Shown here: in pieces, positions 28,361 to 49,536 of the stretch
Position numbering within the stretch: the first letter of the stretch is position 1
How the letters are laid out: each line of letters begins with the position of its first letter
Source: Neisseria sp.
GTDB taxonomy: Bacteria > Pseudomonadota > Gammaproteobacteria > Burkholderiales > Neisseriaceae
Assembly: GCA_030538055.1 (NCBI GenBank)
Contig: JAUNUS010000004.1
Coordinates: forward strand, 25,524-89,523
DNA: 64,000 nucleotides
Direction: 5' to 3'
Position numbers and translations under genes: made by a program
The notes under the pieces: model-generated
Database searches by the model: none
What the model saw: the letters and a program-made list of their open reading frames with translations, nothing else
What the model was told of the DNA's origin: nothing

Positions 28361-28548
28361 TGGAAAGCGTGTATATTTTAATTCCCTTGAGTATTTTGCT
28401 GGTATTCGTCATCGGTGCGGCGTTTTGGTGGTCGTCCAAAAGCGGACAATTCGATGACTTGGACGGCCCGGGCTATCGCGTCATCATGGACGACGACAGC
28501 ACCGATACGCTGCCTGAAAACAATGACGACAATCCGCCGACATCATGA
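28360..28548 (+). CDS. ccoS: cbb3-type cytochrome oxidase maturation protein CcoS/FixS
   Basis: MESVYILIPLSILLVFVIGAAFWWSSKSGQFDDLDGP... is the classic CcoS N-terminus. 62 aa, from an internal start of track ORF 28315..28548. Confidence 0.85.
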   Translation: MESVYILIPLSILLVFVIGAAFWWSSKSGQFDDLDGPGYRVIMDDDSTDTLPENNDDNPPTS

Positions 28549-29828: not shown

Positions 29829-29829
29829 A

Positions 29830-29890
29830 CACGGTGCGGCAATGAAGCACAAAGTGAACAGCTTCTGCAAAGCAATACAGGCTGCCTGAA
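29830..29890 (+). repeat. ~60-bp 3'-terminal fragment of the ~350-bp repeat family
   Basis: GGTGCGGCAATGAAGCACAAAGTGAACAGCTTCTGCAAAGCAATACAGGCTGCCTGAA matches the right ends of copies at 59000-59058 and (inverted) 51546-51610. It ends in an exact DUS. Confidence 0.65.
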
Positions 29891-29961
29891 ACATTTAAAA
29901 TCCTTTCAGGCAGCCTAAAATACAATCTTACACAAATATCATTTATTCAAAATCTTCCATA

Positions 29962-30663
29962 ATGAACAACCCTTCTCCACCCGATCATACCGTCAGTCAT
30001 CTGCGCGGCATTCGCAGCTTTGTGCTGCGCCAAGGACATTTATCCGCGTCGCAATTGAACGCCATCAACACTTTAATGCCGCGCTGGGGCATGGCATATC
30101 GCGCCGAGCACACTGATTTGAACGCGCTTTTCGGGCGGGATAAGCCGAAAATTCTGGAAATCGGTTTCGGCATGGGCACGGCCACCGCCGAGATTGCACA
30201 CCAGCTGCCTGAATACGATTTTGTGGCGATTGATGTCCACAGCCCGGGCGTGGGGAATTTGCTGAAATTGATTAACGAGCGCGGTATCGATAACATCCGC
30301 GTGATGCGCCACGATGCGGTCGAAGTGGTCACGCATATGCTGGGCGACGGCAGTTTGCACGGCGTGCATATTTTCTTTCCCGATCCGTGGCACAAAAAAC
30401 GTCACCATAAACGCCGCCTGATTCAGCCTGACTTCATCAACAAGCTGCTGCCGAAAATCGCCATCGGCGGTTATGTTCACGCCGCGACTGATTGGCAAGA
30501 CTATGCCGAGCAAATGCTGGAAGTATTGTCCGCGACCGCAGGTTTACGCAACACCGCCGCCGATTACGCGCCCAAACCCGCCTATCGCCCCGAAACCAAA
30601 TTTGAAACCCGTGGCAAAAAACTCGGTCACGGCGTGTGGGATTTGGTGTTTGAACGGATCTGA
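29962..30663 (+). CDS. trmB: tRNA (guanine46-N7)-methyltransferase
   Basis: EIGFGMG SAM motif and FFPDPWHKKRHHKRRL signature. Confidence 0.93.
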   Translation: MNNPSPPDHTVSHLRGIRSFVLRQGHLSASQLNAINTLMPRWGMAYRAEHTDLNALFGRDKPKILEIGFGMGTATAEIAHQLPEYDFVAIDVHSPGVGNLLKLINERGIDNIRVMRHDAVEVVTHMLGDGSLHGVHIFFPDPWHKKRHHKRRLIQPDFINKLLPKIAIGGYVHAATDWQDYAEQMLEVLSATAGLRNTAADYAPKPAYRPETKFETRGKKLGHGVWDLVFERI

Positions 30664-30886
30664 CGGCGATTATCTTCAATACTTTGGGAGCCTCTGAAAC
30701 GAAGTTCAGAGGTCTCCTTGCATAATCCGTGTTAAAATTCGTCTTTTCGCCGTTTGTCATCAAGCGGTAAAAAATTTTCCCAACCCGCCGTAAGGCTGCC
30801 TGAAACACTAATTTTCCGCATACCGTATCAGAGTGTTGAAAATTAGGGTTTTAGCGGCTGACGGTTTTATTCAAAAAAGGACTTTT

Positions 30887-33019
30887 ATGTTTAATAAACA
30901 CGTTAAAACATTCCAATACGGTCAGCACACCGTCAGCTTGGAAACCGGCGAAATCGCCCGTCAAGCATCCGCCGCCGTTAAAGTATCCATGGGCGACACC
31001 GTGGTGTTGGTGAGCGTGGTCGCTGCCAAAGACATTAAAGCAGGGCAAGATTTCTTTCCCTTGACCGTGGATTATTTCGAGCGCACTTACGCCGCAGGCA
31101 AAATCCCCGGCGGCTTTTTCAAGCGCGAAGGCAAACCGAGCGAAAAAGAAGTTTTGACCAGCCGTTTGATTGACCGCCCGATCCGCCCGCTGTTTCCGGA
31201 AGGCTTCTACCACGACATTCAAATCATCGCGATGGTGGTATCGCTCGACCCCGAAATCGACTCCGACATCCCCGCCATGATCGGCGCGTCCGCCGCTTTG
31301 GTCTTGGCCGGCGTACCTTTTGCCGGTCCGATTGGCGCAGCGCGCGTAGGCTACCTGAACGGCGAATATGTTTTGAACCCGAGCAAAACCCAACTGGAAA
31401 GCTCGCAGTTGAACTTGGTCGTCGCCGGCACGCAAAAAGCGGTGCTGATGGTGGAATCCGAAGCGCAAGAATTGTCCGAAGCCGTGATGCTCGGCTCGGT
31501 GGTGTTCGGTCACGAGCAAATGCAAACTGTGATTCAAGCGATCAACGAATTGGCCGACGCGGTCAATCCTGCGGTGTGGGAATGGCAAGCACCGGTGAAA
31601 AACGATGCTTTAATCCAACAGATCAAAGACATCGCCGGAGAAGACATTCAGGCAGCCTTCAAAATCCGCCAAAAACAATCCCGCAGCGAAAAATTAAGCG
31701 AAGCTTGGGCAAAAGTCTCCGCCGCTTTGATCAATGAAAACACCGACACTTTGGCGGCCAACGAAATTCGCGGCATTTTCCATGATCTGGAAGCCGAAGT
31801 GGTGCGCTCGCAGATCCTCAACGGCGAAGCACGCATCGACGGCCGCGATACCCGCACCGTGCGCCCGATCAACATTCAAACCGGCGTTTTACCGCGCACC
31901 CACGGTTCGGCATTGTTCACCCGTGGTGAAACCCAAGCTTTGGCAGTCGCCACCTTAGGCACGCAACGCGACGAGCAAATCATCGACGCTCTGAGCGGCG
32001 AGTATACCGACCGCTTTATGTTGCATTACAATTTCCCACCCTACTCTACCGGCGAAGTCGGTCGCGTCGGCGTGCCCAAACGCCGCGAAATCGGCCACGG
32101 CCGCCTGGCGAAACGCGCTTTGCTGGCGGTCTTGCCGCCGCAAGAAGAATTCAACTACGCCATGCGCGTGGTGTCCGAAATCACCGAATCGAACGGTTCG
32201 TCATCCATGGCTTCCGTGTGCGGCGGCTGTCTCGCCCTTTTGTCGGCAGGCGTTCCGCTGAAAGCTCACGTTGCCGGCATCGCCATGGGTTTGATTTTGG
32301 AAGGCAATAAATTCGCCGTCCTGACCGATATTCTCGGTGACGAAGACCATTTGGGCGATATGGATTTCAAAGTCGCCGGCACCGCAAACGGCGTGACCGC
32401 CCTGCAAATGGACATCAAAATCCAAGGCATCACCAAAGACATCATGCACATCGCGCTGGAGCAGGCCAAAGAAGGCCGTATGCACATCTTGGGCTTGATG
32501 AAAGAAGCAGTCGAAGGCCCGCAGACCTTGTCCGAATTTGCACCGCGTCTGTTTACCTTGAAAATCAACCCCGAGAAAATCCGCGACGTGATCGGTAAAG
32601 GCGGCGAAACCATCCGCGCCCTGACCAAAGAAACCGGCACGGAAATCAACATCGACGACACCGGTATCATCGTGATCGCCGCCACCACACAGGAAGCCGC
32701 CGACGAAGCCAAACGCCGCATCGAAGAAATCACGGTTGAAGTCGAAGCGGGCAAAGTGTACGAAGGCACGGTACTGAAAATCCTCGACAATAACGTCGGT
32801 GCGATTGTCTCGATTTTGCCGGGTAAAGACGGTTTGGTGCATATCAGCCAAATCGCCCACGAGCGCGTGAAAAACGTCAGCGATTACCTGCAAGTCGGCC
32901 AAGCCGTCACGGTCAAAGCTTTGGAAATCGACGACCGTGGTCGCGTCCGCCTGTCGATTAAAGCCTTGCTGGACAGACCGCAAGCACAGGAAGAAAGCGG
33001 CGAACAAGATAACGCGTAA
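30887..33019 (+). CDS. pnp: polyribonucleotide nucleotidyltransferase (PNPase)
   Basis: [27 protein letters not shown]..., two RNase PH domains, KH ([11 protein letters not shown]) and S1 ([11 protein letters not shown]). The track start at 30833 is a GTG extension. Confidence 0.97.
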
Positions 33020-33044
33020 TCAAGCTTGCCTCCATCATCTCGAA

Positions 33045-33072
33045 CCGCCCTGATCAAACAGGGCGGTTTTTT
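33045..33072 (+). terminator. rho-independent terminator of pnp
   Basis: CCGCCCTG-atcaaa-CAGGGCGG followed by TTTTTT. Confidence 0.8.
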
Positions 33073-33386
33073 GATGCCTGATGCAGCAATACAACACATT
33101 TTCCGAGGAAAATACTGAGAAAAATAAAACATTCATCCTACCTGATTATTGTCGGTAAGAGAAAACCAGTCCTAGCCTGATGATGTATGGATAACTTTCT
33201 CTTTTCCATACTGCTGATAACCATCATCTGTGCTCAATCAATCAAAAAAAACTACTTGGTTCAATGGGTATTAAAATTGACAATCGCCAAAAAATAATAA
33301 TATAATAATGGATCATTTATTCTCGCTCAGAAAGCACCCTGAACGAGGGTTCAATCGACCAACCATCCCAACGCGAGGTACACACC

Positions 33387-33752
33387 ATGTCCAATTTCGC
33401 CTTATCAGAACTTGCCAAATTAGACGGCTTTATCGCCGTTACCCTAGTCGACACCGAAGTCGGCATGAGCATGGCATCCGAAGGCTCAACCGCAACCGAC
33501 CCCGAGATGAACGCCGTTGCCGCAACCGAAGTTTATCGCTCAATGACTAAAGCCATTGATCTGTTGCAGTTGAACGATAAAATCGAAGACACTTTGGTCT
33601 CCTTAGGCGACACCTACCAGCTGATTCGCCCCTTGCATGCCAATCCCAAACTCGTGATTCATCTGGCCATGCGCCGTGCCCAGTCCAACTTGGCATTGGC
33701 TCGTCGCGCTTTGTCCGACTTTGAAAGCAGCCACGATTTTTCCGTGCTGTAA
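33387..33752 (+). CDS. Roadblock/LC7-like protein, orphan paralog of 4936..5292
   Basis: 121 aa. It aligns by eye along its whole length with the 118-aa protein (LDGFIAVTLVD / VDGALSAAVVD; LIRPL / LMRPL; identical SNLALARRAL). It is flanked by an AT-rich upstream region and its own terminator. Confidence 0.6.
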   Translation: MSNFALSELAKLDGFIAVTLVDTEVGMSMASEGSTATDPEMNAVAATEVYRSMTKAIDLLQLNDKIEDTLVSLGDTYQLIRPLHANPKLVIHLAMRRAQSNLALARRALSDFESSHDFSVL

Positions 33753-33770
33753 TCGAAAAACATCATCTCT

Positions 33771-33802
33771 ACTGCCGTGCCTATGCACGGCAGTATTTTT
33801 TT
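33771..33802 (+). terminator. rho-independent terminator
   Basis: ACTGCCGTGC-ctat-GCACGGCAGT followed by ATTTTTTT. Confidence 0.75.
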
Positions 33803-33916
33803 GCTTTCAGGCAGCCTGAAAAGTAAATAGCGATAGGTGTGCGATCCATTCAAGCCATACTGCTTGAGCATAACTGTACATTGATCCATCTCCGGTAAGA
33901 AACAACAAAAACAGCA

Positions 33917-33960
33917 AAACCGCCGATGCCGCGCAATGAATGGCGCGGCATCGGCGGTTT
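33917..33960. terminator. 18-bp perfect hairpin, likely mltD terminator
   Basis: AAACCGCCGATGCCGCGC-aatgaatg-GCGCGGCATCGGCGGTTT. On the minus strand it is followed by a T-rich tract. Confidence 0.6.
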
Positions 33961-33987
33961 AAGTGCGGTGACACTTTGATGCTTGGC

Positions 33988-35568
33988 TTATGCAGATTTT
34001 TTCTTACGATTGAGCTTTACCGATTTTTGTGCGGCTTTTTTGTCGCTTGCTTTTTTCTGTACACGTTTGTTGGTAACCGTTTTTTGTTTACTGTTAACTT
34101 TACGTGTAGTAGTGCGCTTGGTGGTCGCAGATTGTGTTTTGACTTTCAGCACCTGTCCGACGCGAAGTTTATCCGAACGCAAATTATTCAGTGCTTTAAG
34201 CTCTTTGACCGTCATGCCTACCTGCTGTGCAATCTGCGATAAGGTCACGCCTTTTTTCACCGTTACCCGTGCATAGCGCACAGTATTGTTTTTCGCTCGC
34301 GGAGCAACCGTATCGTTAATGATGCGCGGCTCTTCATACCAACCGTCTGCCACCGAGTCTGTATCGTTATACGTCGTTTTCACCATATAATTCGATGCGG
34401 CGCGGTTGGTGGTGATCACACTGTCCGGTGCCGGCGTCGCTATCGTTCTGACGCGCGCCACCAATAAAATACTGCCTGTCGGCACATGATCGCCACGCAG
34501 ATTATTACCTTTTTTCAGCACCGCCAGATCCATACCGTATTGCTTGGCGATTTCCGTTAATTGCCGCTCCTCACCCACACGATGAGGCTGCCAAGTCAGC
34601 AAGGCATCGGGATCCGCCTGACGCAAATTGGCGCGAAAAGTCGCTACCGCAGATTTAGGCAATAACAGCTTGCGTCCGCTTTGCGGTACCCATACCGGTA
34701 CTTTATAACCCGGGTTCAGGCTCAACAGCTCTTCTTCGGAAATTTTCGCCAAGCGGGCAATCGCCGCCATATCGATCGGATGATCCACTTTCACCGCTTC
34801 AAAATACGGGCGGTTGTCGATTTTTTTCAAGGCCAGATCAAAAGCACTCGGATCTTCTACCAGATTACGCACCGCTAGCAATTTCGGCACATATTCTCGG
34901 GTTTCCCGCGGCAAATCAAGATATTCGAATGTGGTCGGCAGGCCTTTTTTCTCGGCGCGCGCCTGTGCCCGTTGTACACAGCCTTCACCACAGTTGTACG
35001 CCGCCAGCGCCAGATTCCAATCGCCAAACATACCATGCAAGTACTGCAAGTAATCCAGCGCGGCATTGGTCGCAGCATGCACGTCATTGCGTCCGTCATA
35101 CCATTGGCTTTGTTTTAAGCCGTATTGCGTACCGGTTTTCGGCATAAACTGCCAAATACCCGATGCGCCGACATGCGATTTGGCACGGGTAACGAATGCG
35201 CTTTCGATGAACGGTAACAAGGCAATCTCGCCGGGCATATTTCTTTTTTCGACTTCACTGGCGATATGGTAAAGATAAGGTGAGCCGCGGCGAACGATGC
35301 GATTGAAATATTCCGGTTTTTTCGCATAAAAATCTTCAAACCGCTGCACCAGATCAGGACTGACGTCTTTTAATTCAAAACGATGGCGAATCTGCCCCCA
35401 TAAATCCAAATCCGCACCGGTGGCACGTAAAGGCGAATTATTCAGCTGCATCACGTATGCCGCCAACTCTTGTTCGCTGACATTGTTCGCAGCCGCCGTA
35501 CCATTCGCGCAGGCAAAAAAAGGCAGCCCCAAAAGGCTGATGACCATGTATTTGAAAGAAGCCGTCAT
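33988..35568 (-). CDS. mltD: membrane-bound lytic murein transglycosylase D-like lipoprotein with LysM repeats
   Basis: Lipobox LPFFAC after the ATG at 35568 (track start 35589 is GTG). It has an SLT domain (ESAF..., SGIWQFMPKTGTQYGL) and LysM-like segments (e.g. VTVKKGVTLSQIAQQVGMTVKELKALNNL). The C-terminal tail is highly basic. Confidence 0.85.
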   Translation of the reverse strand: MTASFKYMVISLLGLPFFACANGTAAANNVSEQELAAYVMQLNNSPLRATGADLDLWGQIRHRFELKDVSPDLVQRFEDFYAKKPEYFNRIVRRGSPYLYHIASEVEKRNMPGEIALLPFIESAFVTRAKSHVGASGIWQFMPKTGTQYGLKQSQWYDGRNDVHAATNAALDYLQYLHGMFGDWNLALAAYNCGEGCVQRAQARAEKKGLPTTFEYLDLPRETREYVPKLLAVRNLVEDPSAFDLALKKIDNRPYFEAVKVDHPIDMAAIARLAKISEEELLSLNPGYKVPVWVPQSGRKLLLPKSAVATFRANLRQADPDALLTWQPHRVGEERQLTEIAKQYGMDLAVLKKGNNLRGDHVPTGSILLVARVRTIATPAPDSVITTNRAASNYMVKTTYNDTDSVADGWYEEPRIINDTVAPRAKNNTVRYARVTVKKGVTLSQIAQQVGMTVKELKALNNLRSDKLRVGQVLKVKTQSATTKRTTTRKVNSKQKTVTNKRVQKKASDKKAAQKSVKLNRKKKSA

Positions 35569-35698
35569 GACACTATTACTCGAAATCACTGTTCAATAAT
35601 GCAGACAATGTTAATTTTTCTCTTAAAAAAAGTCAAGCCGAGATTCAAGTAAAGTCAATGATTTATCTGATGATTTTTCTTAAAGTGATAAGGTTTAT

Positions 35699-36124
35699 CT
35701 ATTCCAGATGATGCGTGGTGTCGGCAGATTGCGATGTTTTGACTTCACTGAATTCGCCGCTGATGATGTTGTCATCCTTTTTAGGCTGCCTGAAAGCGGA
35801 TTTTGCCTTACCTTTCAATGGGAGCAACAATGCCAAGCCGATGATATCGCTGAAAAAACCGGGCAGCAAAAAAAGCAATGCCGCCATACCGTAACGCATC
35901 GGCCATAGCATCTGGTACCACGAAACGCTGCCGTCACGACTGCGGAAAATATCCATCGACAGCAGAAAAGCAGACACTCCGATATGGCGCAGCATGTACA
36001 CGCCCAAGAAAAAAAACAGTGCCAGCATCATAATGGTCGCTGCGCCCCCCGCCCATGAGGCAAACAATACCAGCGACAAAATTTCCGCGAAGAAAAAACC
36101 GATAAACATCAAAAAATAAGGCAT
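35699..36124 (-). CDS. fxsA: FxsA family membrane protein
   Basis: 141 aa. FAEILSLVLF at the N-terminus and the signature PGFFSDIIGLALLLP. Confidence 0.8.
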   Translation of the reverse strand: MPYFLMFIGFFFAEILSLVLFASWAGGAATIMMLALFFFLGVYMLRHIGVSAFLLSMDIFRSRDGSVSWYQMLWPMRYGMAALLFLLPGFFSDIIGLALLLPLKGKAKSAFRQPKKDDNIISGEFSEVKTSQSADTTHHLE

Positions 36125-36263
36125 CGAAACGCTCCAAACTGATCAGGTTAAACATGTTGGGTTCTTGAACCGCTTTTCAACTCTAACACAAGACCTGCCG
36201 GCGTCATCAAGTAAAAAAGCCACACCATAAGGATGATCACACCCAGTTCATATACCTTCCCAT

Positions 36264-36288
36264 AAAAAATGCCCGTCAAATGACGGGC
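36264..36288 (-). terminator. rho-independent terminator of the cco operon
   Basis: Minus strand reads GCCCGTCA-tt-TGACGGGC followed by ATTTTTT, 22 nt after the ccoP stop. Confidence 0.75.
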
Positions 36289-36309
36289 ATTGATTTGACT
36301 GAGCATTAA

Positions 36310-37668
36310 TTATTGCAAAGTCACTTCCACACGGCGAGCTTCGGCGTTCGAACCGTCACCGGTAGTGGATTCGGGTTTTTTCAGATCGATTTTGTCAGCC
36401 GGCACGCCCAAGGCTTCCAATGCCGCCTGTACCGCTTGCGCACGCTGTTTGGCCAACTCTGCGTTTTGTGCAGCGTCACCGGTGGCATCATGAAATCCCG
36501 AGATGACAACGGTTTTACCTTCTTGCACACCTTGCACAACCGCAGCCAAAGCGTCGTTTGCACCGGCGGCAAGATTGTTGCTGCCAACGGCGAAGTAGAA
36601 TTTCACCACGCCGTCGTCACCGACAACCACTTGATCACCTTCGTCAGCTGCGGCTGCCGATGCAGCGGCATCAGATGCCGGAGCAGCCTCAACCGGAGCA
36701 GGTGCTGCAGCAGCATTGGCACCGGTATTGGACAGACCCCAAACATAAGCGGTCAAGATTTTCAGCTTGCTGTCGTCTTCCTTACCGTTCTCGGTGGTCA
36801 CCAAGAAGTTGCTCCATGCCGGCATTTCGTTGGTGTGACCGTTGATGATCGTATTTTCGATATCTTTGTCACGACCGCCCCACAACCAGATGTTATCGGT
36901 CATGTTCGGAGCCAGACCGATCATGCCTTTACCGTCCGCTTGGTGACAGGTGAAGCAGATTTGATCATAAATGGCTTTACCTTTAGCCGCACGCGCCGGA
37001 TTCGAACGATCTTTGTATTCGGGGTGTTCATTCAAAGACAGCAAGTAATGGGTCACGTCTTTCACCGACTCTTCGGGGAAAGGCGGCAAACCACCGTACG
37101 GCAACATCACACCGATACGACCGTCTTTAATCGTCGATTGGATCGACTCGGGATCACCACCCCACAACCAATCGTGGTCGGTCAGGTTCGGGAAGCCTTT
37201 TGCACCTTTTGCGTCAGCACCGTGGCACTGAATACAGTAAGTGTTGAACAGATTTTGTCCGATGACTTTGGCTTCGGGGTCTTGCGCGATTTGTTCAACC
37301 GGCATCGCCGCGAATTTGTCGTAAATCGGCTGATATTTGGCTTTTGCCGTTTGCATTTCGCCTTCATACTGGTTTTGGCTCGTCCAACCCAAAATACCTT
37401 TGAACGTACCGAAACCCGGGTACAGTATCAGGTAGCCGATACTGAACACCACCGTGATGACAAAGAGGTAAAACCACCAGCGGGGCAGCGGATTGTTGTA
37501 TTCCTCAATCCCGTCCCACTCGTGCCCCATGGTTTCTGCCTGACCGTCTTTGGTTTTTTTGGTTTTGTTTTGCGAAACCAATAACCAAATCATGCCGATG
37601 AAGCTGATGATCAGGATAACCGCAATGTAGATATTCCAGAAATTACTGGTGAAATCTGATGTATTCAT
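36310..37668 (-). CDS. ccoP: cbb3-type cytochrome c oxidase subunit III (dihaem CcoP) fused to a C-terminal OmpA-C-like domain
   Basis: N-terminal TM helix, two CxxCH motifs (CIQCH, CFTCH), an Ala/Pro-rich linker, then KFYFAVGSNNL...VVISGFHDATGDAAQNAELAKQRAQAVQAALEALGVPADKI...EARRVEVTL. The ORF is continuous. Confidence 0.9.
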   Translation of the reverse strand: MNTSDFTSNFWNIYIAVILIISFIGMIWLLVSQNKTKKTKDGQAETMGHEWDGIEEYNNPLPRWWFYLFVITVVFSIGYLILYPGFGTFKGILGWTSQNQYEGEMQTAKAKYQPIYDKFAAMPVEQIAQDPEAKVIGQNLFNTYCIQCHGADAKGAKGFPNLTDHDWLWGGDPESIQSTIKDGRIGVMLPYGGLPPFPEESVKDVTHYLLSLNEHPEYKDRSNPARAAKGKAIYDQICFTCHQADGKGMIGLAPNMTDNIWLWGGRDKDIENTIINGHTNEMPAWSNFLVTTENGKEDDSKLKILTAYVWGLSNTGANAAAAPAPVEAAPASDAAASAAAADEGDQVVVGDDGVVKFYFAVGSNNLAAGANDALAAVVQGVQEGKTVVISGFHDATGDAAQNAELAKQRAQAVQAALEALGVPADKIDLKKPESTTGDGSNAEARRVEVTLQ

Positions 37669-37871
37669 TTATTCGCTCCGTTTCCATGAGTCGCATCTGG
37701 GCTCGAATGCTCGGCAGTTGTGCTTTCCCAAGGGGTATCGTTATCATCGATAATCTCTTGTGCCACATCTTTATAGCCTTTTCTTGCGCCTTTGCGGTAG
37801 GTAATCAGCACAAAAATGATGAAAGCACTAAAGCACAATACCGTGAATAAAATTCGAGCCAGATCAATCAT
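37665..37871 (-). CDS. ccoQ: cbb3-type cytochrome oxidase subunit CcoQ
   Basis: 68 aa, single TM (ILFTVLCFSAFIIFVLITY). It lies between ccoO and ccoP, and its stop overlaps the ccoP start. Confidence 0.75.
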   Translation of the reverse strand: MIDLARILFTVLCFSAFIIFVLITYRKGARKGYKDVAQEIIDDNDTPWESTTAEHSSPDATHGNGANK

Positions 37872-37874
37872 GAT

Positions 37875-38507
37875 TTACCTTTGAGTAGTGTTAGCCAACG
37901 CATGACCCAAGCTCTGCAAATAGGCAATCATCGCGTCCTGTTCGGTTTTCGGCGAGCCGTCGTCATTGGTCATCTCTGCTTGGGCAGCATCGAAGTCTTC
38001 CTGAGTATAAGGAACACCGACCATTTTCAGAACTTTCATGCGTTTCACGGTGGTGGCAACATCCACTTTATTGGTGGACAACCACGGGAAAGCAGGCATG
38101 ACCGACTCGGGAACGACCGCACGCGGATCTTCTAAGTGCAGCTGATGCCAAGTGTCGGAATAACGACCACCGACACGAGCCAGATCAGGACCGGCACGTT
38201 TGGAACCAAACTGGAACGGGTGGTCGTAAACCGACTCTCCGCCCACGGAGTAATGACCATAACGCTCGGTTTCCGCACGGAACGGACGAATCATTTGCGA
38301 GTGGCAGGTATAGCAGCCTTCGCGTACGTAAATATCACGTCCGGCTTGCTGTAACGCAGTATACGGTTTTTGTCCCGGCGCAGGTTCGGTTGCCGATTTG
38401 GAACCGAACAACGGGATAACTTCAATAAGCAGACCGAAGCTGATCACCACAAGAATAAAGATGATCAAAAACGCCACTTTCTCTTCAGCGAGTTTTTGGA
38501 AATTCAT
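37875..38507 (-). CDS. ccoO: cbb3-type cytochrome c oxidase subunit II (monohaem CcoO)
   Basis: N-terminal TM helix and [11 protein letters not shown]. Confidence 0.95.
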
Positions 38508-38527
38508 TTTTCTGTCCTGCCTTTCTT

Positions 38528-39958
38528 TTAGTGTTGAGCCTGAGAGACAGTAGGAATCGGCGCATCAACAGCTTTGCCTACCGCAATGGTGCGGAAAACG
38601 TTATAAGCCATCAAAATCATACCCGCAAGGTACAATACGCCGCCGATAAAGCGAATGACAAAGTACGGGATCGATTGCTTAACCGACTCGATGAAAGAGT
38701 AAGTCAGCGTGCCGTCGATGTTCAAGTCGCGCCACATCAGACCCTGCATCACACCGGCAATCCACATCGAAGCGATGTAAAGCACGATGCCGACCGTACC
38801 GATCCAGAAGTGTACTTCGATGAGTTTCACGCTGTACATTTCTTTACGGCCGAAGAGGCGGGGAATCAGATAATAGAGGGAACCCATGGTCACAAAACCT
38901 ACCCAGCCCAATGCGCCGGAGTGTACGTGACCTACCGTCCAGTCGGTGTAGTGCGACAGTGCATTCACCGATTTAACCGACATCATCGGACCTTCAAAGG
39001 TCGACATGCCGTAGAACGAGAGGGAAACGATCAGGAACTTCAAGATCGGGTCGGTGCGCAGTTTATGCCATGCACCGGACAAGGTCATGATACCGTTGAT
39101 CATACCGCCCCAGCTCGGAGCCAGCAGAATCAGGGAGAAAATCATCCCCAAAGACTGCGTCCAGTCAGGCAATGCGGTGTAATGCAAGTGGTGAGGACCT
39201 GCCCACATATAAGTGAAAATCAATGCCCAGAAGTGAACCACGGACAGGCGATAGGAGTAGATCGGACGGCCTGCTTGCTTCGGTACGAAGTAGTACATCA
39301 TGCCCAAGAAAGCGGCTGTCAGGAAGAAACCTACGGCATTGTGACCGTACCACCACTGCACCATGGCATCAATCACACCGGAGTAAATCGGATAAGACCA
39401 AGTCAAACCGGCAGGAACGGCTGCGTTATTGACGATGTACAACAGGGCGATCGCCAAAATAAAGGCAGCGTAGAACCAGTTGGCCACGTAGATGTGTTTG
39501 ACTTTACGGGTTGCCAATGTGCCGAAGAAGACGATGGCGTAAGACACCCACACCACCACCACCAGCAAGTCGACAATCCACGGCAGTTCGGCATATTCTT
39601 TACCTTGCGTCCAACCCATCGGGTAGCTGATGGCTGCACCCAAAATCACGAGCTGCCAGCCCCAGAAAGTGAAAGCTGCCAGCGGACCGGCGAAAAGGCG
39701 TACGTTACAGGTACGCTGTACGACGTAATACGATGTTGCAAAAAGACCGCAACCGCCGAATGCAAAGATCACGGCGTTGGTGTGCAGGGGGCGCAACCGA
39801 CCGAAGTGAAACCACGGACCGATGTCGCTCAAGTTCAGTGCCGGCATAAAAAGTTGAGCGGCGATCAAGACGCCGACCAACATACCGACAATACCCCACA
39901 CTACAGTCATGACGGCAAATTGCCGCACCACCTTGTAGTTGTAAGTTTGCGTTTCCAT
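38528..39958 (-). CDS. ccoN: cbb3-type cytochrome c oxidase subunit I
   Basis: Polytopic haem-copper oxidase ([29 protein letters not shown]). I placed the start at [11 protein letters not shown] (39958). The 60-codon track extension was discarded. Confidence 0.95.
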
Positions 39959-40188
39959 AAAGGTTCTCCATAAATTATGGGGGGTTAAAACTTGGTATCC
40001 TGCTGCGGCTTGCCCGTGACAAGACACCTGTTCGGTTATTGTTGAATATCGCTGCCGGTCGTTGCCGACCTTGGCGAACCTGCCTATTCTAAAACAATTC
40101 CCTGTGACAAACCAGCGCACACCTCTTGAAAGATGCACGCACGGGCTGCATAGTGTGCTCAGGGTATAGAAAATTTAATGAACTTATC

Positions 40189-40202
40189 TTGATCAATATC
40201 AA
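40189..40202. promoter_or_regulatory. FNR-type box TTGAT-caat-ATCAA
   Basis: Perfect match to the TTGAT-N4-ATCAA consensus, in the divergent region between ccoN (start 39958) and the M61 peptidase gene (start 40253). Confidence 0.6.
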
Positions 40203-40252
40203 GCAATCCCAGAATATATCTACAAAATTCCTCTTTACAGAAAGCTTTTGTT

Positions 40253-41992
40253 ATGATTCGTTATGTTGTTGCGGCGCACAATCCCCATGCTCACTTATTT
40301 CAGATAACACTCTATTTTTCCAATAACAATCAGCGATCCGTACAGGTTTTTCTGCCTAACTGGACCCCCGGCAGTTACATGATTCGCGACTTCTGCAAAA
40401 ACGTGCGTGCAGTACGTGCTTCCTGCGACAATTCGCCGCAAGTGTTGCGCCAAATCAACAAAAACACTTGGGAAACACCTGCGTTGGCGGGCAATTGGGT
40501 GATCGAATATGAAGTGTATGCTTTCGATTTATCCGTGCGCGGTGCATTTTTGGACGGGGAGCGGGCTTTTTTTGACGGGGCATCTTTGTTGATGGCGGTT
40601 GTCGGGCAGGAGCAGGCTGCTTGCGAACTCTTTTTCAGGCTGCCTGAAAGCTGGAACTGCGCCATCGCTTTGCCGCAAGACGAACACGGTACGTATCACG
40701 CGCCTGATTATGCGGCCTTGATTGATGCGCCGCTGGAAGCAGGCTGCCTGAAAAGAATCGCGTTTGAAGCCGAAGGCATTGCCCATGAAATCGTGCTTTC
40801 AGGCAGCCATGAACATTTGGATGCGGAACGTTTACGTGACGATGTGCAACGTATTTGCAGCGAGCATATCCGTTTATTCAGGCAGCCTGCACCGTTTGAA
40901 CGGTACACTTTTTTGCTGCACGTGACCGACAATGCTTATGGCGGTTTGGAACATCGCGCTTCCACCGCGCTTTTGGCGGCGCGCCATTGCCTGCCTTCCA
41001 CCCGCCGCGACGATAACCGTGACGATTACATCACCTTGCTGGGACTGTTCAGCCATGAGTATTTTCATGCGTGGAACGTTAAGGCGATCAAGCCGCAAGT
41101 TTTTCAACCATATGATTTACAACAAGAAACCTACACCGAGCAATTATGGGCGGTTGAGGGCATCACTTCTTATTATGATGATTTGGCCTTGGTGCGCAGC
41201 GGTGTGATTGCGCCTGAAGAATACTTCAAACTGCTGCTCAAAAACATTGACCGCGTGCATCAAGGCAGCGGACGTTTTCACCAATCTCTGGCGCAATCAA
41301 GTTTTAACGCTTGGACCAAATACTACAAACAAGACGAAAACAGCAGCAATGCGATTGTCAGTTATTACCAAAAAGGCGCGCTGGCGGCATTGTGTCTGGA
41401 TTTGCGGATTCGCCGCGCCACCGCACACGCGGCATCGTTGGACGATGTGATGCGTCTGCTGTACGCCGACTATCGTGCCAACGGTCAAGGCTTGGCGGAC
41501 GATGCTTGGCAGGCGGCTGCGGAAAAGATCGCAGGTGAAGATTTGTCCGATTTCTTTCAGGCAGCCATTCATGGCACGGACGATTTGCCTTTGGCGCAAG
41601 AGCTTGCCGCTTACGGACTGGAGCTGCGTTTTGCTGCGGTCGAGCAATCCGGCATCGTCGAGACCTTCCCTGATGCGCCCTGCCCTACACTGGATTTTGG
41701 CGCACAGTTAGAGACTGTTCCCGCCGGCAAAAGCATTGTCCGCATCGCCAACGGTTCGCACGCGGAACAAGCCGGACTGGCGATCAAAGACATTATTCTC
41801 GCCCTGGACCGTTGCGGCGCGTCCGAGTTTGACCACACTTGGCGGCAAGTGCGCACGGGGGATAAGGTAAGCGTGCATTATTTGCGGCACAACCGTTTAT
41901 ACAAAACCTGCTTCACCGCCGCTGCACGGCACCCGCAACACGCTTTGCTTAAAATCCATGCACAGGGGAAATGGGACAATTGGCTGACATAA
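40253..41992 (+). CDS. M61 family glycyl aminopeptidase with C-terminal PDZ domain
   Basis: 579 aa. HEYFHAWN zinc motif, EGITSYYDDL, and a C-terminal PDZ-like segment (AEQAGLAIKDIILALD). Confidence 0.85.
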   Translation: MIRYVVAAHNPHAHLFQITLYFSNNNQRSVQVFLPNWTPGSYMIRDFCKNVRAVRASCDNSPQVLRQINKNTWETPALAGNWVIEYEVYAFDLSVRGAFLDGERAFFDGASLLMAVVGQEQAACELFFRLPESWNCAIALPQDEHGTYHAPDYAALIDAPLEAGCLKRIAFEAEGIAHEIVLSGSHEHLDAERLRDDVQRICSEHIRLFRQPAPFERYTFLLHVTDNAYGGLEHRASTALLAARHCLPSTRRDDNRDDYITLLGLFSHEYFHAWNVKAIKPQVFQPYDLQQETYTEQLWAVEGITSYYDDLALVRSGVIAPEEYFKLLLKNIDRVHQGSGRFHQSLAQSSFNAWTKYYKQDENSSNAIVSYYQKGALAALCLDLRIRRATAHAASLDDVMRLLYADYRANGQGLADDAWQAAAEKIAGEDLSDFFQAAIHGTDDLPLAQELAAYGLELRFAAVEQSGIVETFPDAPCPTLDFGAQLETVPAGKSIVRIANGSHAEQAGLAIKDIILALDRCGASEFDHTWRQVRTGDKVSVHYLRHNRLYKTCFTAAARHPQHALLKIHAQGKWDNWLT

Positions 41993-42047
41993 AACAAAAA
42001 AGCTTTCAGGCAGCCTGAAAACTTTAGTTATGAATAACCACTGTTTT

Positions 42048-42509
42048 TTAGAATATTTTGCGCGAATCCAGCAATATCGTGACCGGCCCGTCGTTGCACA
42101 GACTAATGTGCATATGGGTTTGAAATTGTCCGGTGGCGACATTCAGTCCACGCTCACGCAGGTAAAGCGCGGTTTGCTCGTATAAGGCGTTGGCGGTTTC
42201 GGCTCGGGCGGCGCGGCTGTAGGACGGACGGCGGCCGTTGCGCGCATCGCCGAGTAAGGTGAATTGCGAAATCAGCAAGATTTCGCCCTTGATGTCTTGG
42301 AGCGACCGATTCAATTTGCCGTTTTCGTCATCAAAAATCCGCAATCCTGCGATTTTGTCGGCGATGTAGCGCGCATCTGCTGCCGTGTCGCCCTCTTCCA
42401 CACCCAGTAACACGGTCAGCCCGTGACCAATCGCAGCAACGGTTTCGTTGTGTGACGGGCCGATCACGGTGACGGCAGAGGAAACGGTGCGTTGAATCAC
42501 GGCGCGCAT
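42048..42509 (-). CDS. dtd: D-aminoacyl-tRNA deacylase
   Basis: [15 protein letters not shown]...[17 protein letters not shown]...[10 protein letters not shown]. The start is the internal ATG at 42509 of track ORF 42048..42665. Confidence 0.9.
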
Positions 42510-42513
42510 AGGT

Positions 42514-43359
42514 TTAATGCTCCTGATGTTCGAATAATTGCCACACGGGGCGGCAAGTGAGCGGCAACTCGGGCGGACGGCCGATGATGCAGCCGTATTC
42601 GCCTTGCCCGTGAAAATCGCTGCCGCGCGAAGCGTATAAACCGTAACGGTTCGCCAGCAAGGCAAAATTCAAACGTTCGTTCAAAGAGTGCACCGAACAC
42701 GCAACTTCGATCGCCTGTCCGCCCAGCGCAATGAATTCTTCCAATAAAGCACGCATCGCGGTCGCACTCAAACGATACCGCGCCGGGTGCGCGATCACCG
42801 CCACACCGCCTGCGGTATGAATCATGGCAACGGCTTCGGCTAAAGTCGCCCATTCGTGTTTGACGCAGGCAGGTTTGCCGTCGCCCAACCATTTTTTGAA
42901 AGCTTCGTCTTTATCCGCAACATGACCGTTTTGGCATAAAAACTGGGCAATATGGGTGCGGCTGACTGTGTCGGGATTTTCCGCCAAAGCCAATGCGCCT
43001 TCGTACACGCCGTCGATTTTGGCTTTTTTCGCCAACCGTTCGGCGATTTTTTGCAAACGCGTTAAGCGGCCACTGCGAATCTGCGCCAGTTTTTCAGGCA
43101 GCCCTGCATGATGACGGTCAAAATTCAAGCCGACGATGTGCACCGTGCGCGCACGCCATGTCACCGAAATTTCCACGCCGTTGATGAGGTTTACGCCATG
43201 ATCTTGTGCGGCAAGATGCGCCTCCGCCAAACCGCCGATATGGTCGTGATCGGTCAGTGACAGCATGGTCGCGCCGTTGGCGTGCGCCAGCCGCACCACT
43301 TCGGACGGCGGAAATTTCCCGTCCGAAACATGGGAATGGCAATGCAGGTCGATGCTCAT
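42514..43359 (-). CDS. PHP-domain phosphoesterase (TrpH/YciV, RNase AM-like)
   Basis: [14 protein letters not shown]..., and HPARY later. 281 aa. Confidence 0.85.
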
Positions 43360-43526
43360 GCCGATTGCGCCGCGACGGCGGCATCGTAGCGCGCTTTGTC
43401 ACGCGCATAAATCGACCACAAACACGCCTCGCCGCAATCGCTGTTGCAGCACTCCCATTCGGCCGGTGGTTCGGGGGCTTGTAAAGATGCAGCATCGAGG
43501 CTGCCTGAAGATGTGGTGTGTGTCAT
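43356..43526 (-). CDS. 56-aa Cys-rich protein, oxidoreductase-like N-terminal domain family (below the ORF-track size cut-off)
   Basis: My translation: [56 protein letters not shown]. The stop overlaps the PHP gene start (ATGA). The motif P-x-x-ECC-x-S-x-C-x-x-C-x-W matches PF09791 as I remember it. Confidence 0.5.
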   Translation of the reverse strand: MTHTTSSGSLDAASLQAPEPPAEWECCNSDCGEACLWSIYARDKARYDAAVAAQSA

Positions 43527-43553
43527 ATAAAATTTTATTGAATCATGAATACT

Positions 43554-43772
43554 TTACGGCAAAACCTGAATCGTCGCCTCACCCAGCGTGATGATTTCGC
43601 CGCTGCGGATTTTGGCGGTTTTGCGGGTTTCGACTTCACCGTTACGCCGCACTTCGCCGGCGGCAATCAGCATTTTGGCTTGACCGCCGCTGTCGGTGAC
43701 GCCGACGGTTTTCAAAAGATCGCACAAGGGAATGTACGGTGCATCGCATAAGTTAAAAGAAATCGGTTTCAT
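43554..43772 (-). CDS. ybcJ: S4-like RNA-binding protein YbcJ
   Basis: 72 aa. LCDLLKTVGVTDSGGQAKMLIAAGEVRRNGEVETRK parallels E. coli YbcJ. Confidence 0.8.
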   Translation of the reverse strand: MKPISFNLCDAPYIPLCDLLKTVGVTDSGGQAKMLIAAGEVRRNGEVETRKTAKIRSGEIITLGEATIQVLP

Positions 43773-43848
43773 AAAATTTTCAGGCTGCCTGAAAGATGAA
43801 AAAAGACATTTAATTTAACAAAAATGCTTTATCCAAGCAAAAGCTATT

Positions 43849-44547
43849 TTATGGCAAAGCGATAGCATAATCTCTATGCCCGAACAATGCCGAGCCGATG
43901 CGCAGATGAGTAGTGCCGTATTCCAGCGCCAGCCGCCAATCGCCCGACATGCCCATGGATAACGCATCCAAAGCGAAACCTTGAGCTTGTAAATCGCGGT
44001 ATAAGGCTTGCGCCGCCTGCATTTGCGCGCGGACAATGCTTTCCTCCGCCGCGCTGGGCACGCACATGATGCCGCGCAATCTCAACGGCGGCAGATCGGT
44101 GATGCGCTGCGCCAGTTCGGCAGCGTCAGACGGTGCAATGCCGTGCTTTTGCGCCTCGCCCGAAATATTGATTTCAATGCACACGTTTAAGGGCGGCAAG
44201 TCGGCAGGGCGTTGTGCGGCAAGCCGTTCGGCGATTTTGGCGCGGCTGACGGTGTGCACCCATGCGGCGTGCTCCGCCACTTGGCGGGTTTTATTGCTTT
44301 GCACGTCACCAATCATGTGCCACACAATGTCTTCAGGCAGCCTTTGCTGTTTTTCCGCCCATTCCTGAACATAGTTTTCGCCGAAATCGCGCACACCGGC
44401 ATCGTAAAAACCTTGAATCGCTTCAGGCGGAAAGGTTTTGCTCACCGCAATCAAGGTGATTTCTTCAGGCAGCCTATGGACGGCACGCGCAGCGGCGTCA
44501 ATATCGCGGCGTAAAGCGCGGTAACGCTCGGCAGGACTTAAACTCAT
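43849..44547 (-). CDS. yggS: YggS-family pyridoxal phosphate homeostasis protein
   Basis: LIAVSKTF (PLP Lys), FGENYVQE, HMIGDVQSNK. I placed the start at MSLSPAERY (44547). It is divergent from pilT, as in other proteobacteria. Confidence 0.9.
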   Translation of the reverse strand: MSLSPAERYRALRRDIDAAARAVHRLPEEITLIAVSKTFPPEAIQGFYDAGVRDFGENYVQEWAEKQQRLPEDIVWHMIGDVQSNKTRQVAEHAAWVHTVSRAKIAERLAAQRPADLPPLNVCIEINISGEAQKHGIAPSDAAELAQRITDLPPLRLRGIMCVPSAAEESIVRAQMQAAQALYRDLQAQGFALDALSMGMSGDWRLALEYGTTHLRIGSALFGHRDYAIALP

Positions 44548-44646
44548 AACGGTTCTCGCATAAAAAGATACAATCGTCACTGATTCGGTTTGAGATCAAA
44601 CCGTTCTTTACCCTTGCGATTCATGCTTGTGGTAATATTTGCCAAT

Positions 44647-44688
44647 ATTTTAAGTTCTTCATTCCCCATTTTAAGTTCTTCATTCCCA
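44647..44688. repeat. 21-bp tandem duplication (2 units, 20/21 identical) upstream of pilT
   Basis: ATTTTAAGTTCTTCATTCCCC / ATTTTAAGTTCTTCATTCCCA, ending 18 nt before the pilT ATG. Confidence 0.9.
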
Positions 44689-44705
44689 AAAATCGAGGCT
44701 GAACC

Positions 44706-45743: not shown

Positions 45744-45758
45744 TTCGGAGACTTGCTC

Positions 45759-46997: not shown

Positions 46998-47013
46998 TTC
47001 CTGTCTGTAAAAA

Positions 47014-49516: not shown

Positions 49517-49536
49517 GGTTTAAATAAAGGATAATT

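What the first reader, a model, noticed from the sequence alone, without database searches (positions are those of the whole stretch)
36313..36723. CcoP carries a C-terminal OmpA-C-like (peptidoglycan-binding-type) domain in place of a third haem domain
After a normal dihaem CcoP (CIQCH and CFTCH) there is an Ala/Pro-rich linker (NAAAAPAPVEAAPASDAAASAAAADEG). A segment of about 110 aa follows, with the hallmarks of the OmpA C-terminal/MotB-like fold: F-x-F-x-x-g-S-x-x-L, then VVISGFHDATGDAAQNAELAKQRAQAVQAALEALGVPADKI (compare GHTDxxGsxxyNxxLSxxRAxaV), and finally ARRVEV. It has no CxxCH. As I recall, pathogenic Neisseria CcoP proteins also have a linker-attached extra C-terminal domain, but there it is a third c-type cytochrome. 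The same attachment point seems to have been reused here for a cell-wall-binding module, which would tether the cbb3 oxidase to peptidoglycan or to a periplasmic partner. The reading frame is continuous, so this is not simply two adjacent genes.
Basis: partly seen in the sequence, partly recalled or inferred. Interest (0 to 1): 0.65.

Follow-up and report, generated by a model that had tools for sequence, protein, structure and literature searches.

The report
cbb3 oxidase subunit with cell-wall anchor
The CcoP subunit of this bacterium's respiratory cbb3 oxidase really does end in a conserved, probably cell-wall-binding, OmpA-like domain on a flexible linker; this undescribed architecture is the common form in Neisseriaceae and appears to predate the third haem domain of the pathogenic Neisseria.

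Summary
Window 36310..37668 (-) is one 452-aa ORF, the last gene of a ccoNOQP operon, with a strong terminator 18 nt after its stop. It has two TM helices, a dihaem CcoP core (TIGR00782, 305 bits), a disordered Ala/Pro-rich linker (about aa 315-345) and a 107-aa OmpA-like module (PF00691, 48.6 bits against a 27.2 cut-off). The tail model (pLDDT 90.8) matches only peptidoglycan-binding OmpA-like domains. The Asp/Arg pair that binds diaminopimelate (D394, R409) is invariant in 116 homologues.

It is not a one-off. Of 161 close CcoP relatives, 117 carry the module, 14 are tri-haem, 27 are short and 3 keep only a linker. OmpA-type and tri-haem CcoPs with 92-93 % identical cores share the same linker start, so one domain replaced the other.

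The module is a distinct, portable betaproteobacterial subfamily. It is usually a single-TM inner-membrane protein. It is also fused to CcoO, cytochrome c5 and H+-pyrophosphatase, and to CcoP in Burkholderiales, where the public record lists only the last 137 aa.

Tethering to peptidoglycan is inferred, not shown. No paper describing this was found.

The parts
38528..39958 (-). ccoN, cbb3 oxidase subunit I. The start at METQTYNYK... is inferred; the mechanical ORF runs up to 40138.
   Evidence: TIGR00780 ccoN 834 bits against a cut-off of 583; ORF.
37875..38507 (-). ccoO, monohaem subunit II.
   Evidence: TIGR00781 302 bits; Pfam FixO 273.8 bits.
37665..37871 (-). ccoQ-like small membrane subunit (68 aa). 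It overlaps the ccoP start by 4 nt.
   Evidence: Pfam FixQ 21.1 bits, E 3e-4, which is below the 29-bit cut-off. Assigned by position between ccoO and ccoP.
36310..37668 (-). ccoP-ompA fusion gene: the whole 452-aa ORF including the stop codon at 36310..36312.
37570..37644 (-). TM helix 1 of CcoP (aa 9-33).
   Evidence: Helix in the full-length AlphaFold model; hydrophobic sequence.
37423..37482 (-). TM helix 2 of CcoP (aa 63-82), inside the FixP_N region (aa 44-90).
   Evidence: Pfam FixP_N 87.2 bits.
36727..37557 (-). CcoP core as matched by TIGR00782 (aa 38-314), containing both c-type haem domains.
   Evidence: TIGR00782 305 bits against a cut-off of 179.95.
37222..37236 (-). Haem-binding motif 1, CIQCH (aa 145-149).
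   Evidence: invariant C145, C148, H149.
36943..36957 (-). Haem-binding motif 2, CFTCH (aa 238-242).
   Evidence: invariant C238, C241, H242.
36634..36726 (-). Ala/Pro/Ser-rich flexible linker (aa 315-345), variable in length and sequence among homologues.
   Evidence: pLDDT < 50 for aa 321-342. Linker of 33-107 residues, median 63, 33 % Ala and 11 % Pro across 113 homologues. Poorly conserved columns.
36313..36633 (-). OmpA-like (peptidoglycan-binding type) module, aa 346-452, with a beta-alpha-beta-alpha-beta-beta fold.
   Evidence: PF00691 48.6/51.7 bits; model pLDDT 90.8; Foldseek hits.
36487..36489 (-). Codon of D394, the counterpart of the diaminopimelate-binding Asp of OmpA-like domains.
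   Evidence: Invariant in 116 homologues. Aligned with the Asp of the G(Y/F)TD motif in YiaD, PA0833-PD and Salmonella OmpA. Role of the Asp/Arg pair from PMC5974059.
36442..36444 (-). Codon of R409, the counterpart of the diaminopimelate-binding Arg.
   Evidence: Invariant; aligned with the Arg of the (R/K)RA motif.
36268..36291 (-). Intrinsic terminator: a 10-bp stem with 6 G-C pairs, a 4-nt loop and a T-run, 18 nt after the ccoP stop. It ends the operon.

Best explanation
The gene encodes a CcoP subunit of the cbb3 cytochrome oxidase whose periplasmic C-terminus continues into a flexible linker and a small OmpA-like domain.

Shown:
- The ORF is continuous and is the last gene of ccoNOQP.
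- The tail is an OmpA-family domain by profile and by predicted fold.
- Its signature residues are under strong conservation, while the linker is free to vary.
- The same module occurs alone on a single-TM anchor and on other inner-membrane proteins.

Inferred:
- After the haem domains are exported, the linker of about 30-45 disordered residues lets the module reach the peptidoglycan layer.
- There the module binds the meso-diaminopimelate-containing stem peptide non-covalently through the D394/R409 pocket, as Pal, OmpA, MotB and PA0833 do.
- This ties the oxidase to the sacculus. The consequence would be restricted lateral mobility or positioning of the oxidase, an extra inner-membrane-to-wall strut for the envelope, or both.
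- The catalytic dihaem core should work without the tail.

Evolution (inferred from distribution):
- A free-standing TM-linker-module gene of Betaproteobacteria supplied the module.
- CcoP replaced its TM anchor.
- Within Neisseria the module was later exchanged for a cytochrome c5-like haem domain, by recombination in the shared Ala/Ser/Pro-rich linker. That exchange gave the tri-haem CcoP of the pathogens.
For: Family and fold:
- PF00691 is above the gathering score.
- Profile-to-PDB hits include PA0833-PD, YiaD, TagL, YfiB, Pal and OmpA.
- The confident model gives Foldseek matches only to peptidoglycan-binding OmpA-like domains, including AbOmpA bound to a peptidoglycan pentapeptide, 3td5, at TMq 0.75.

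Binding residues:
- D394, G397, N402, R409, A410, R445 and R446 are invariant in 116 homologues that are 46-83 % identical overall.
- D394 and R409 align with the Asp and Arg of the conserved motifs in PA0833-PD, YiaD and OmpA.
- Asp271 and Arg286 of A. baumannii OmpA bind diaminopimelate. They are conserved in PA0833, whose domain binds peptidoglycan in vitro (PMC5974059).

Topology and linker:
- The model shows two TM helices, then the haem domains, then the tail, with the linker at pLDDT < 50.

Recurrence on partners with periplasmic C-termini:
- CcoP in a Burkholderiales MAG (L044).
- CcoO followed by ccoQ and ccoP (P0351/L043).
- Membrane-anchored cytochrome c5 (P0178, P0199).
- H+-PPase (L036, L035, L033, P0218).
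- Dozens of single-TM anchors.

Swap:
-, and the tolerance of transposon insertions in the linker and third domain of gonococcal ccoP.
Against: - No binding experiment exists for this subfamily.
- The module is shorter than classical OmpA-like domains. The Pfam match covers profile positions 1-76 of 98, and the loop before the final strand is short. The pocket could therefore differ.
- OmpA-like domains can also serve in protein contacts (RmpM with porins, YfiB with YfiR).
- The reach of the linker to the wall is an estimate, not a measurement.
- Short, tail-less CcoPs are scattered among close relatives (27 of 161), so the tail is dispensable in some lineages.
- The direction of the swap rests on neighbour-joining trees without support values, and Neisseria genes recombine often.
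- No expression or read data could be found for this organism.
Confidence: 0.7

Rival explanations
1. The OmpA-like module is a protein-protein docking domain, not a wall anchor. It would hold the oxidase next to a periplasmic or outer-membrane partner, for example a redox partner, or a porin complex in the way RmpM does. Alternatively it could act as a switch, as in YfiB. In either case peptidoglycan binding would be secondary or absent.
For: - YfiB and RmpM (1r1m) are among the structural and sequence relatives.
- The domain that replaced the module in pathogenic Neisseria is a redox domain that serves the nitrite reductase. The tether position can therefore support partner interactions.
- The module is compact and lacks part of the classical domain.
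Against: - The invariant residues are exactly the family's diaminopimelate-binding and structural motif.
- The same module sits on unrelated carriers (H+-PPase, CcoO, c5, plain TM anchors). This argues for a carrier-independent ligand such as the wall, not a partner specific to the oxidase.
Confidence: 0.15
2. The tail is made as part of CcoP but is then cleaved in the linker and acts as a separate soluble periplasmic protein. Alternatively it is a nearly neutral appendage with no effect on respiration.
For: - Ala/Pro-rich linkers are protease-accessible.
- Tail-less and linker-only CcoPs occur among close relatives (P0065, P0297 and 27 short forms).
- Insertions behind the second haem domain are tolerated in the gonococcus.
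Against: - The fusion is retained, with an invariant motif, in 117 clusters down to 46 % overall identity.
- Independent fusions to CcoO and to CcoP in another order indicate selection for physical attachment.
- The free-standing form keeps a membrane anchor and is not soluble.
Confidence: 0.1
3. The fusion is an assembly or frameshift artefact that joins two neighbouring genes.
For: None found. The public annotation of a related Burkholderiales genome does list only the last 137 aa as a separate 'OmpA family protein'.
Against: - The frame is continuous here and in L044.
- The architecture recurs in more than 100 independent clusters.
- There is no start codon context, ribosome-binding site or signal peptide for a separate tail gene.
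- The terminator follows the tail, not the core.
Confidence: 0.02

Closest known systems
Tri-haem CcoP of Neisseria gonorrhoeae and related human Neisseria (Aspholm et al. 2010, PMC2924362)
   Same: - The same dihaem core: 61 % identity between the window core and the tri-haem P0293 core, and up to 92-93 % between OmpA-type and tri-haem proteins within Neisseria.
- The same position of an Ala/Ser/Pro-rich low-complexity linker after the YVWG helix.
- An extra globular periplasmic domain at the end.
   Different: - The extra domain here is OmpA-like with no CxxCH. It is not a c5-like cytochrome, so it cannot carry electrons.
- The published model derives the tri-haem form from a 'primordial di-haem' ccoP and states that all other CcoPs are di-haem. 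Neither statement fits the distribution found here.
PA0833 (P. aeruginosa) and YiaD (E. coli) OmpA-C-like domains; Pal, OmpA, OprF and TagL peptidoglycan-binding domains
   Same: - The same fold and the same motif (G-x-x-D-x-x-G ... N-x-x-L-x-x-x-R-A ... R-R-V-E).
- They are the best sequence and fold matches.
- PA0833-PD binds peptidoglycan in vitro.
   Different: - Those proteins are lipoproteins or outer-membrane proteins.
- Here the carrier is an inner-membrane respiratory subunit.
- The module is about 100 aa, shorter than the classical 120-140 aa.
- Identity is only 17-30 % in the fold-search alignments.
MotB, PomB and TssL/TagL: inner-membrane proteins with a C-terminal OmpA-like anchor
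   Same: The same logic: a membrane-embedded machine is tied to the wall by a C-terminal OmpA-like domain on a linker (fold matches).
   Different: - There is no stator channel helix, plug or MotA partner.
- The carrier is a redox enzyme with no known need for a mechanical reaction point.
Free-standing betaproteobacterial 'OmpA family protein' (for example Snodgrassella sp. WP_066569896.1, and Curvibacter soli, Ottowia and Rhodoferax loci)
   Same: - It is the nearest relative of the tail: 58-75 % identity among the best-scoring single-copy representatives.
- It has the same module at the extreme C-terminus behind an Ala/Gly/Pro-rich linker.
   Different: - Its anchor is a single TM helix after a short acidic N-terminus, instead of CcoP.
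- It is uncharacterised.

Membership tests
CcoP / FixP, cbb3 oxidase subunit III (TIGR00782) | Profile match above the curated cut-off. | tested here: met
   305 bits against 179.95, aa 38-314.
CcoP / FixP, cbb3 oxidase subunit III (TIGR00782) | Two CxxCH haem c motifs and an N-terminal membrane anchor with the FixP_N region. | tested here: met
   CIQCH and CFTCH; FixP_N 87.2 bits; TM helices 9-33 and 63-82.
CcoP / FixP, cbb3 oxidase subunit III (TIGR00782) | Encoded in a ccoNOQP operon. | tested here: met
   ccoN 834 bits and ccoO 302 bits; a FixQ-like ORF between ccoO and ccoP; terminator after ccoP.
OmpA-like / OmpA_C peptidoglycan-binding domain (PF00691) | Profile match above the gathering score. 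| tested here: met
   48.6 bits (whole protein) and 51.7 bits (tail) against 27.2. The match covers profile positions 1-76 of 98.
OmpA-like / OmpA_C peptidoglycan-binding domain (PF00691) | Beta-alpha-beta-alpha-beta-beta fold. | tested here: met
   Predicted only: model pLDDT 90.8. Foldseek gives probability 1.00 and TMq 0.6-0.75 to Pal, OmpA, OprF, YiaD and PA0833.
OmpA-like / OmpA_C peptidoglycan-binding domain (PF00691) | Conserved Asp and Arg that bind diaminopimelate (Asp271/Arg286 of A. baumannii OmpA). | tested here: met
   D394 and R409 align with them through PA0833-PD, YiaD and OmpA and are invariant in 116 homologues.
OmpA-like / OmpA_C peptidoglycan-binding domain (PF00691) | Periplasmic location. 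| tested here: met
   By topology only: the tail follows the c-type haem domains, which mature in the periplasm, with no further TM segment.
OmpA-like / OmpA_C peptidoglycan-binding domain (PF00691) | Physical binding to peptidoglycan. | not testable with these tools
   Needs a sacculus co-sedimentation assay.
Tri-haem neisserial CcoP | A third CxxCH in a c5-like C-terminal domain. | tested here: not met
   Only two CxxCH motifs, and no cytochrome profile hit after aa 297.
MotB/PomB-type stator anchors | A single TM helix with a conserved proton- or ion-binding Asp, a plug segment, and an adjacent motA/pomA gene. | tested here: not met
   The N-terminal part is CcoP. NCBIfam MotB models score only 13-17 bits on the tail, far below their cut-offs. 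The neighbours are cco genes.

The most novel reading that the evidence does not exclude
Betaproteobacteria may possess a dedicated, portable 'wall-tether' module that has been attached repeatedly and independently to energy-transducing inner-membrane proteins. The carriers found are cbb3 oxidase (through CcoP or through CcoO), membrane-bound cytochrome c5 and H+-pyrophosphatase. On this reading, fixing bioenergetic complexes to the sacculus is itself a selected trait, whether for spatial organisation of respiration, control of the distance between inner membrane and wall, or mechanical stabilisation. The long periplasm-spanning linker that evolved for this purpose would then have been co-opted in Neisseria. 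There it carries a haem domain out to the outer-membrane nitrite reductase, which would explain the origin of the tri-haem CcoP of the pathogens.
Probability: 0.3. Interest if true: 0.8.

Novelty: new variant of a known kind. Interest (0 to 1): 0.6.

Why it matters
- Terminal oxidases are generally treated as freely diffusing membrane complexes. A conserved wall-binding domain on a core subunit would be direct evidence that some bacteria pin a respiratory enzyme to the cell wall. It also supplies a simple genetic handle (tail deletion, D394A/R409A) to ask what that pinning is for.
- The finding changes the published account of how the tri-haem CcoP of N. gonorrhoeae and its relatives arose. 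The precursor was probably not a plain di-haem protein. It already carried a linker and an OmpA-like module, and the tri-haem form is not universal in today's genus Neisseria.
- In practice, annotation hides the architecture. The proteins are simply named 'cbb3-type subunit III', and in at least one Burkholderiales genome record only the last 137 aa are listed, as an 'OmpA family protein'.

Tried and rejected
- Sequencing-run search for the junction, to check the frame independently and look for transcripts: no run listed.
- L015 (Sphingomonadales), whose tblastn match seemed to reach residue 438: not a fusion. The CcoP ORF stops at 364 aa and ccoG follows.
- The 52-aa ORF directly downstream (36148..36306): no family hit, and it overlaps the terminator, so it was treated as spurious.
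- A second copy of the module in the window: none found in a six-frame profile scan.
- Gene neighbourhood of the free-standing gene in Snodgrassella: uninformative, glyQS and unrelated genes.
- Literature searches for CcoP with OmpA, cbb3 with OmpA-like and peptidoglycan, CcoP with peptidoglycan-binding, and pyrophosphatase with OmpA fusion: nothing describes these architectures. Subscription journals are not covered.
- P0142 (P-II N-terminal part plus module) and P0267 (HTH start plus module): set aside as probable chimeric gene calls, because their carriers are cytoplasmic.
- The module tree of about 110 columns was too short to decide how many independent CcoP fusions occurred.
- Look-up of the Ottowia testudinis gene: not on record. 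A sister MAG, L044, was used instead.
Full report
**1. What is in the sequence**

The finding's coordinates (36313..36723) are the last 137 codons of a 452-aa ORF at 36310..37668 on the minus strand. The ORF is the fourth gene of a compact operon.
- ccoN is at about 38528..39958 (TIGR00780, 834 bits).
- ccoO is at 37875..38507 (TIGR00781, 302 bits).
- A 68-aa FixQ-like ORF is at 37665..37871.
- ccoP follows.

A 10-bp G+C-rich hairpin with a T-run lies 18 nt after the ccoP stop, at 36291..36268. The tail is therefore the end of the transcription unit, not a separate downstream gene.

The protein has these parts.
- Two TM helices (aa 9-33 and 63-82).
- The FixP_N region.
- Two haem c motifs (CIQCH at 145-149 and CFTCH at 238-242).
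- A full-length match to the CcoP equivalog TIGR00782 over aa 38-314 (305 bits).
- An Ala/Pro/Ser-rich stretch, then about 107 residues that match Pfam OmpA (PF00691) at 48.6 bits in the whole protein and 51.7 bits for the tail alone. The gathering score is 27.2.

There is no third CxxCH.

**2. Is the tail really an OmpA-like domain?**

- Sequence searches against solved structures find YiaD (2k1s) and the PA0833 periplasmic domain (6jfw) with the single sequence.
- A profile of 31 tails finds 47 OmpA-like chains, with a best E-value of 1.4e-12.
- An AlphaFold model of aa 341-452 built on that alignment is confident (pLDDT 90.8, pTM 0.85). It has the beta-alpha-beta-alpha-beta-beta order.
- Foldseek against the PDB gives 119 matches at E <= 0.001. 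The 50 best listed are all OmpA-like domains of wall-binding proteins. They include PA0833-PD, FopA1, YiaD, Pal, OprF, YfiB, TagL and MotB, and the A. baumannii OmpA domain bound to a peptidoglycan pentapeptide (3td5, TMq 0.75).
- In the full-length model the linker (aa 321-342) has pLDDT below 50, while the module stays at 82-97. The overall pTM is 0.55, as expected for independent domains on a flexible tether.

**3. Conservation**

I aligned 116 homologues that are 46-83 % identical overall. The linker columns are variable and gappy. The motif residues D394, G397, N402, R409, A410, R445 and R446 are invariant.

The residue mapping works as follows.
- D394 and R409 align with the Asp of G-Y/F-T-D and the Arg of R/K-R-A in PA0833-PD, YiaD and Salmonella OmpA.
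- These correspond to Asp271 and Arg286 of A. baumannii OmpA, which bind diaminopimelate.
- They are conserved in PA0833, whose domain co-sediments with peptidoglycan (PMC5974059).

The linker measures 33-107 residues (median 63; 45 in the window). It is 33 % Ala, 11 % Pro and 9 % Ser.

**4. Distribution among CcoPs**

With the full protein as query, 117 of the best 120 database clusters have FixP_N, cytochrome c and OmpA domains together. Named examples include:
- Stenoxybacter acetivorans
- Bergeriella denitrificans
- an Eikenella MAG
- Neisseria animalis, N. canis, N. zoodegmatis, N. shayeganii, N. arctica, N. leonii, N. lisongii, N. yangbaofengii and N. chenwenguii

All are labelled only 'cbb3-type subunit III'.

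With the core alone as query, tail-less relatives also appear. Of 161 proteins in total, 117 are OmpA-type, 14 have three CxxCH motifs, 27 are short and 3 keep only a linker.

On a neighbour-joining tree of the core, the OmpA state occurs in nearly every clade, including the window's own clade of ruminant-forestomach Neisseriaceae. The tri-haem proteins form a few groups nested inside Neisseria next to OmpA-type sisters (no support values).

The clearest case is N. yangbaofengii CcoP (P0049, OmpA-type) against the tri-haem proteins P0293 and P0295. Their cores are 91.7-92.7 % identical and their linkers start the same way (YVWGLSNKDGKAPVKKA...). After the low-complexity region they end in unrelated domains.

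Aspholm et al. (PMC2924362) showed the following.
- The third domain is 74 % identical to the C-terminal domain of cytochrome c5.
- Both CcoP and c5 carry an O-glycosylated Ala/Ser/Pro-rich region.
- Insertions behind the second haem domain are tolerated.

They proposed a fusion of cycB with a 'primordial di-haem' ccoP. They also stated that all other CcoPs are di-haem and that the tri-haem allele is complete within the genus. They do not mention OmpA.

The present data fit a modified model. The recipient already had linker plus OmpA module, and recombination in the low-complexity region exchanged the terminal domain. This is an inference from distribution, and the direction is not proven.

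**5. The tail is a portable module**

A scan of species-representative genomes found the tail alone at 63-70 % identity in Burkholderiales. An exhaustive search of 1.84 billion representative proteins found 1784 relatives at E <= 0.001, of which 735 were at E <= 1e-10.

Most of the best 150 are 160-250 aa proteins. They have a short acidic N-terminus, one TM helix, an Ala/Gly/Pro-rich linker, and the module at the very C-terminus. Examples are Ottowia (L034, L038), Rhodoferax (L032), Curvibacter soli (L037) and Snodgrassella sp. CFCC 13594 (P0129).

Other carriers of the same module are listed below.
- **H+-pyrophosphatase.** L036 scores H_PPase 909.7 bits plus OmpA 44.2 bits. L035, L033 and several fragments have the same architecture.
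- **Membrane-anchored monohaem cytochrome 'c5'.** P0178 and P0199. P0199 lies next to SCO1, a c-type cytochrome, CtaA and CtaB.
- **CcoO.** P0351, followed by ccoQ and ccoP.
- **YidB-like proteins** with two or three tandem modules.
- **CcoP in a Burkholderiales-type operon.** In L044 the order is ccoI-S-N-O-Q-P-G. Its 425-aa ORF is continuous and 47 % identical to the window protein over the full length. The public record lists only the last 137 aa, as an 'OmpA family protein'. Sister records from Ottowia testudinis and other genomes begin at the same place, MLTAYVWG, inside the last CcoP helix.

Every credible carrier ends in the periplasm.
- CcoP and CcoO: shown here by their haem domains.
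- H+-PPase: known from memory of its 16-TM crystal structures, in which both termini face the non-cytoplasmic side.

**6. Mechanism**

Shown:
- The architecture, the family membership by profile and predicted fold, the conservation pattern, and the recurrence of the module on other carriers.

Inferred:
- The module binds the diaminopimelate-containing stem peptide and so ties the oxidase to the wall.
- A disordered linker of 45 residues could span up to roughly 100 Å or more when extended. That is the order of the distance from inner membrane to wall that MotB has to bridge. This estimate comes from general knowledge and was not measured here.

The module is found on two different cbb3 subunits and on other energy-converting membrane proteins. 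This favours a carrier-independent ligand (the wall) over a partner specific to the oxidase. What the cell gains is open: positioning or immobilising respiratory complexes, or using abundant complexes as envelope struts. The scattered tail-less relatives show that the tail is not essential everywhere.

**7. Rivals**

- **Protein-docking or signalling role.** This cannot be excluded (confidence 0.15).
- **Post-translational cleavage or near-neutrality.** This is unlikely given the conservation and the repeated fusions (0.1).
- **Frameshift artefact.** This is excluded by conservation and by the continuous frame (0.02).

**8. Novelty and score**

Both the domain and the oxidase subunit are ordinary; the combination is not. 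I found no paper describing a CcoP-OmpA, CcoO-OmpA or H+-PPase-OmpA protein. The architecture is, however, visible in precomputed Pfam annotations.

I rate it a new variant of a known kind, with interest 0.6. It is real, conserved and testable. It corrects a published evolutionary model for a pathogen protein, and it points to a wider, unstudied habit of tethering bioenergetic complexes to the wall. Its function remains inferred.

Noticed in passing
whole window (1..64000): The 12-mer AGGCTGCCTGAA occurs 55 times and its 10-mer core GCTGCCTGAA 77 times in 64 kb, about one per 0.8-1.2 kb. The canonical neisserial GCCGTCTGAA occurs 0 times. From memory, this word is the 'AG-simDUS' dialect of the Neisseriaceae DNA uptake sequence. 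If so, it marks the organism as a naturally transformable member of that family. The closest genomes are ruminant-forestomach 'Neisseriaceae bacterium' MAGs, 67-72 % identical on CcoP.
   Followed up: partly
L044:3137-4414 (GCA_020161215.1, JAIUOM010000001.1): A continuous 425-aa ccoP-OmpA ORF appears in the public gene table only as a 137-aa 'OmpA family protein' that starts inside the last CcoP helix. No ccoP gene is listed between ccoQ and ccoG. Records from Ottowia testudinis, an Ottowia MAG and a Burkholderiales MAG start at the same residue. This looks like a systematic annotation split.
   Followed up: partly
L036:3847-6309, L035:3760-6309, L033:3-1106: Membrane H+-pyrophosphatases of Burkholderiales carry the same OmpA-like module on an Ala/Pro-rich linker at their C-terminus (H_PPase 909.7 bits plus OmpA 44.2 bits in L036). 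I found no description of this in the literature.
   Followed up: partly
L043:10-624 (SRR19631134 contig): A CcoO (FixO) C-terminus is fused through an Ala/Pro-rich linker to the same module, followed by ccoQ and ccoP. In this organism the cbb3 oxidase carries the module on subunit II instead of subunit III. The contig is short and the organism is unknown.
   Followed up: partly
window 36148..36306 (-): A 52-aa ORF directly after ccoP overlaps the operon terminator hairpin and has no family match. It is probably not a gene.
   Followed up: yes
window 33988..35589 (-) and 35699..36124 (-): Downstream of the operon lie an FxsA-family membrane protein and an MltD-like lytic transglycosylase (SLT domain plus LysM), which is a peptidoglycan-remodelling enzyme. 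I did not examine whether its closeness to a wall-binding oxidase subunit is more than coincidence.
   Followed up: no
P0142 (200 aa) and P0267 (272 aa): Two representatives join the module to cytoplasmic-type N-termini: P-II residues 1-73, and a LacI-like HTH start. These make no topological sense and are probably chimeric gene calls or assembly joins.
   Followed up: no
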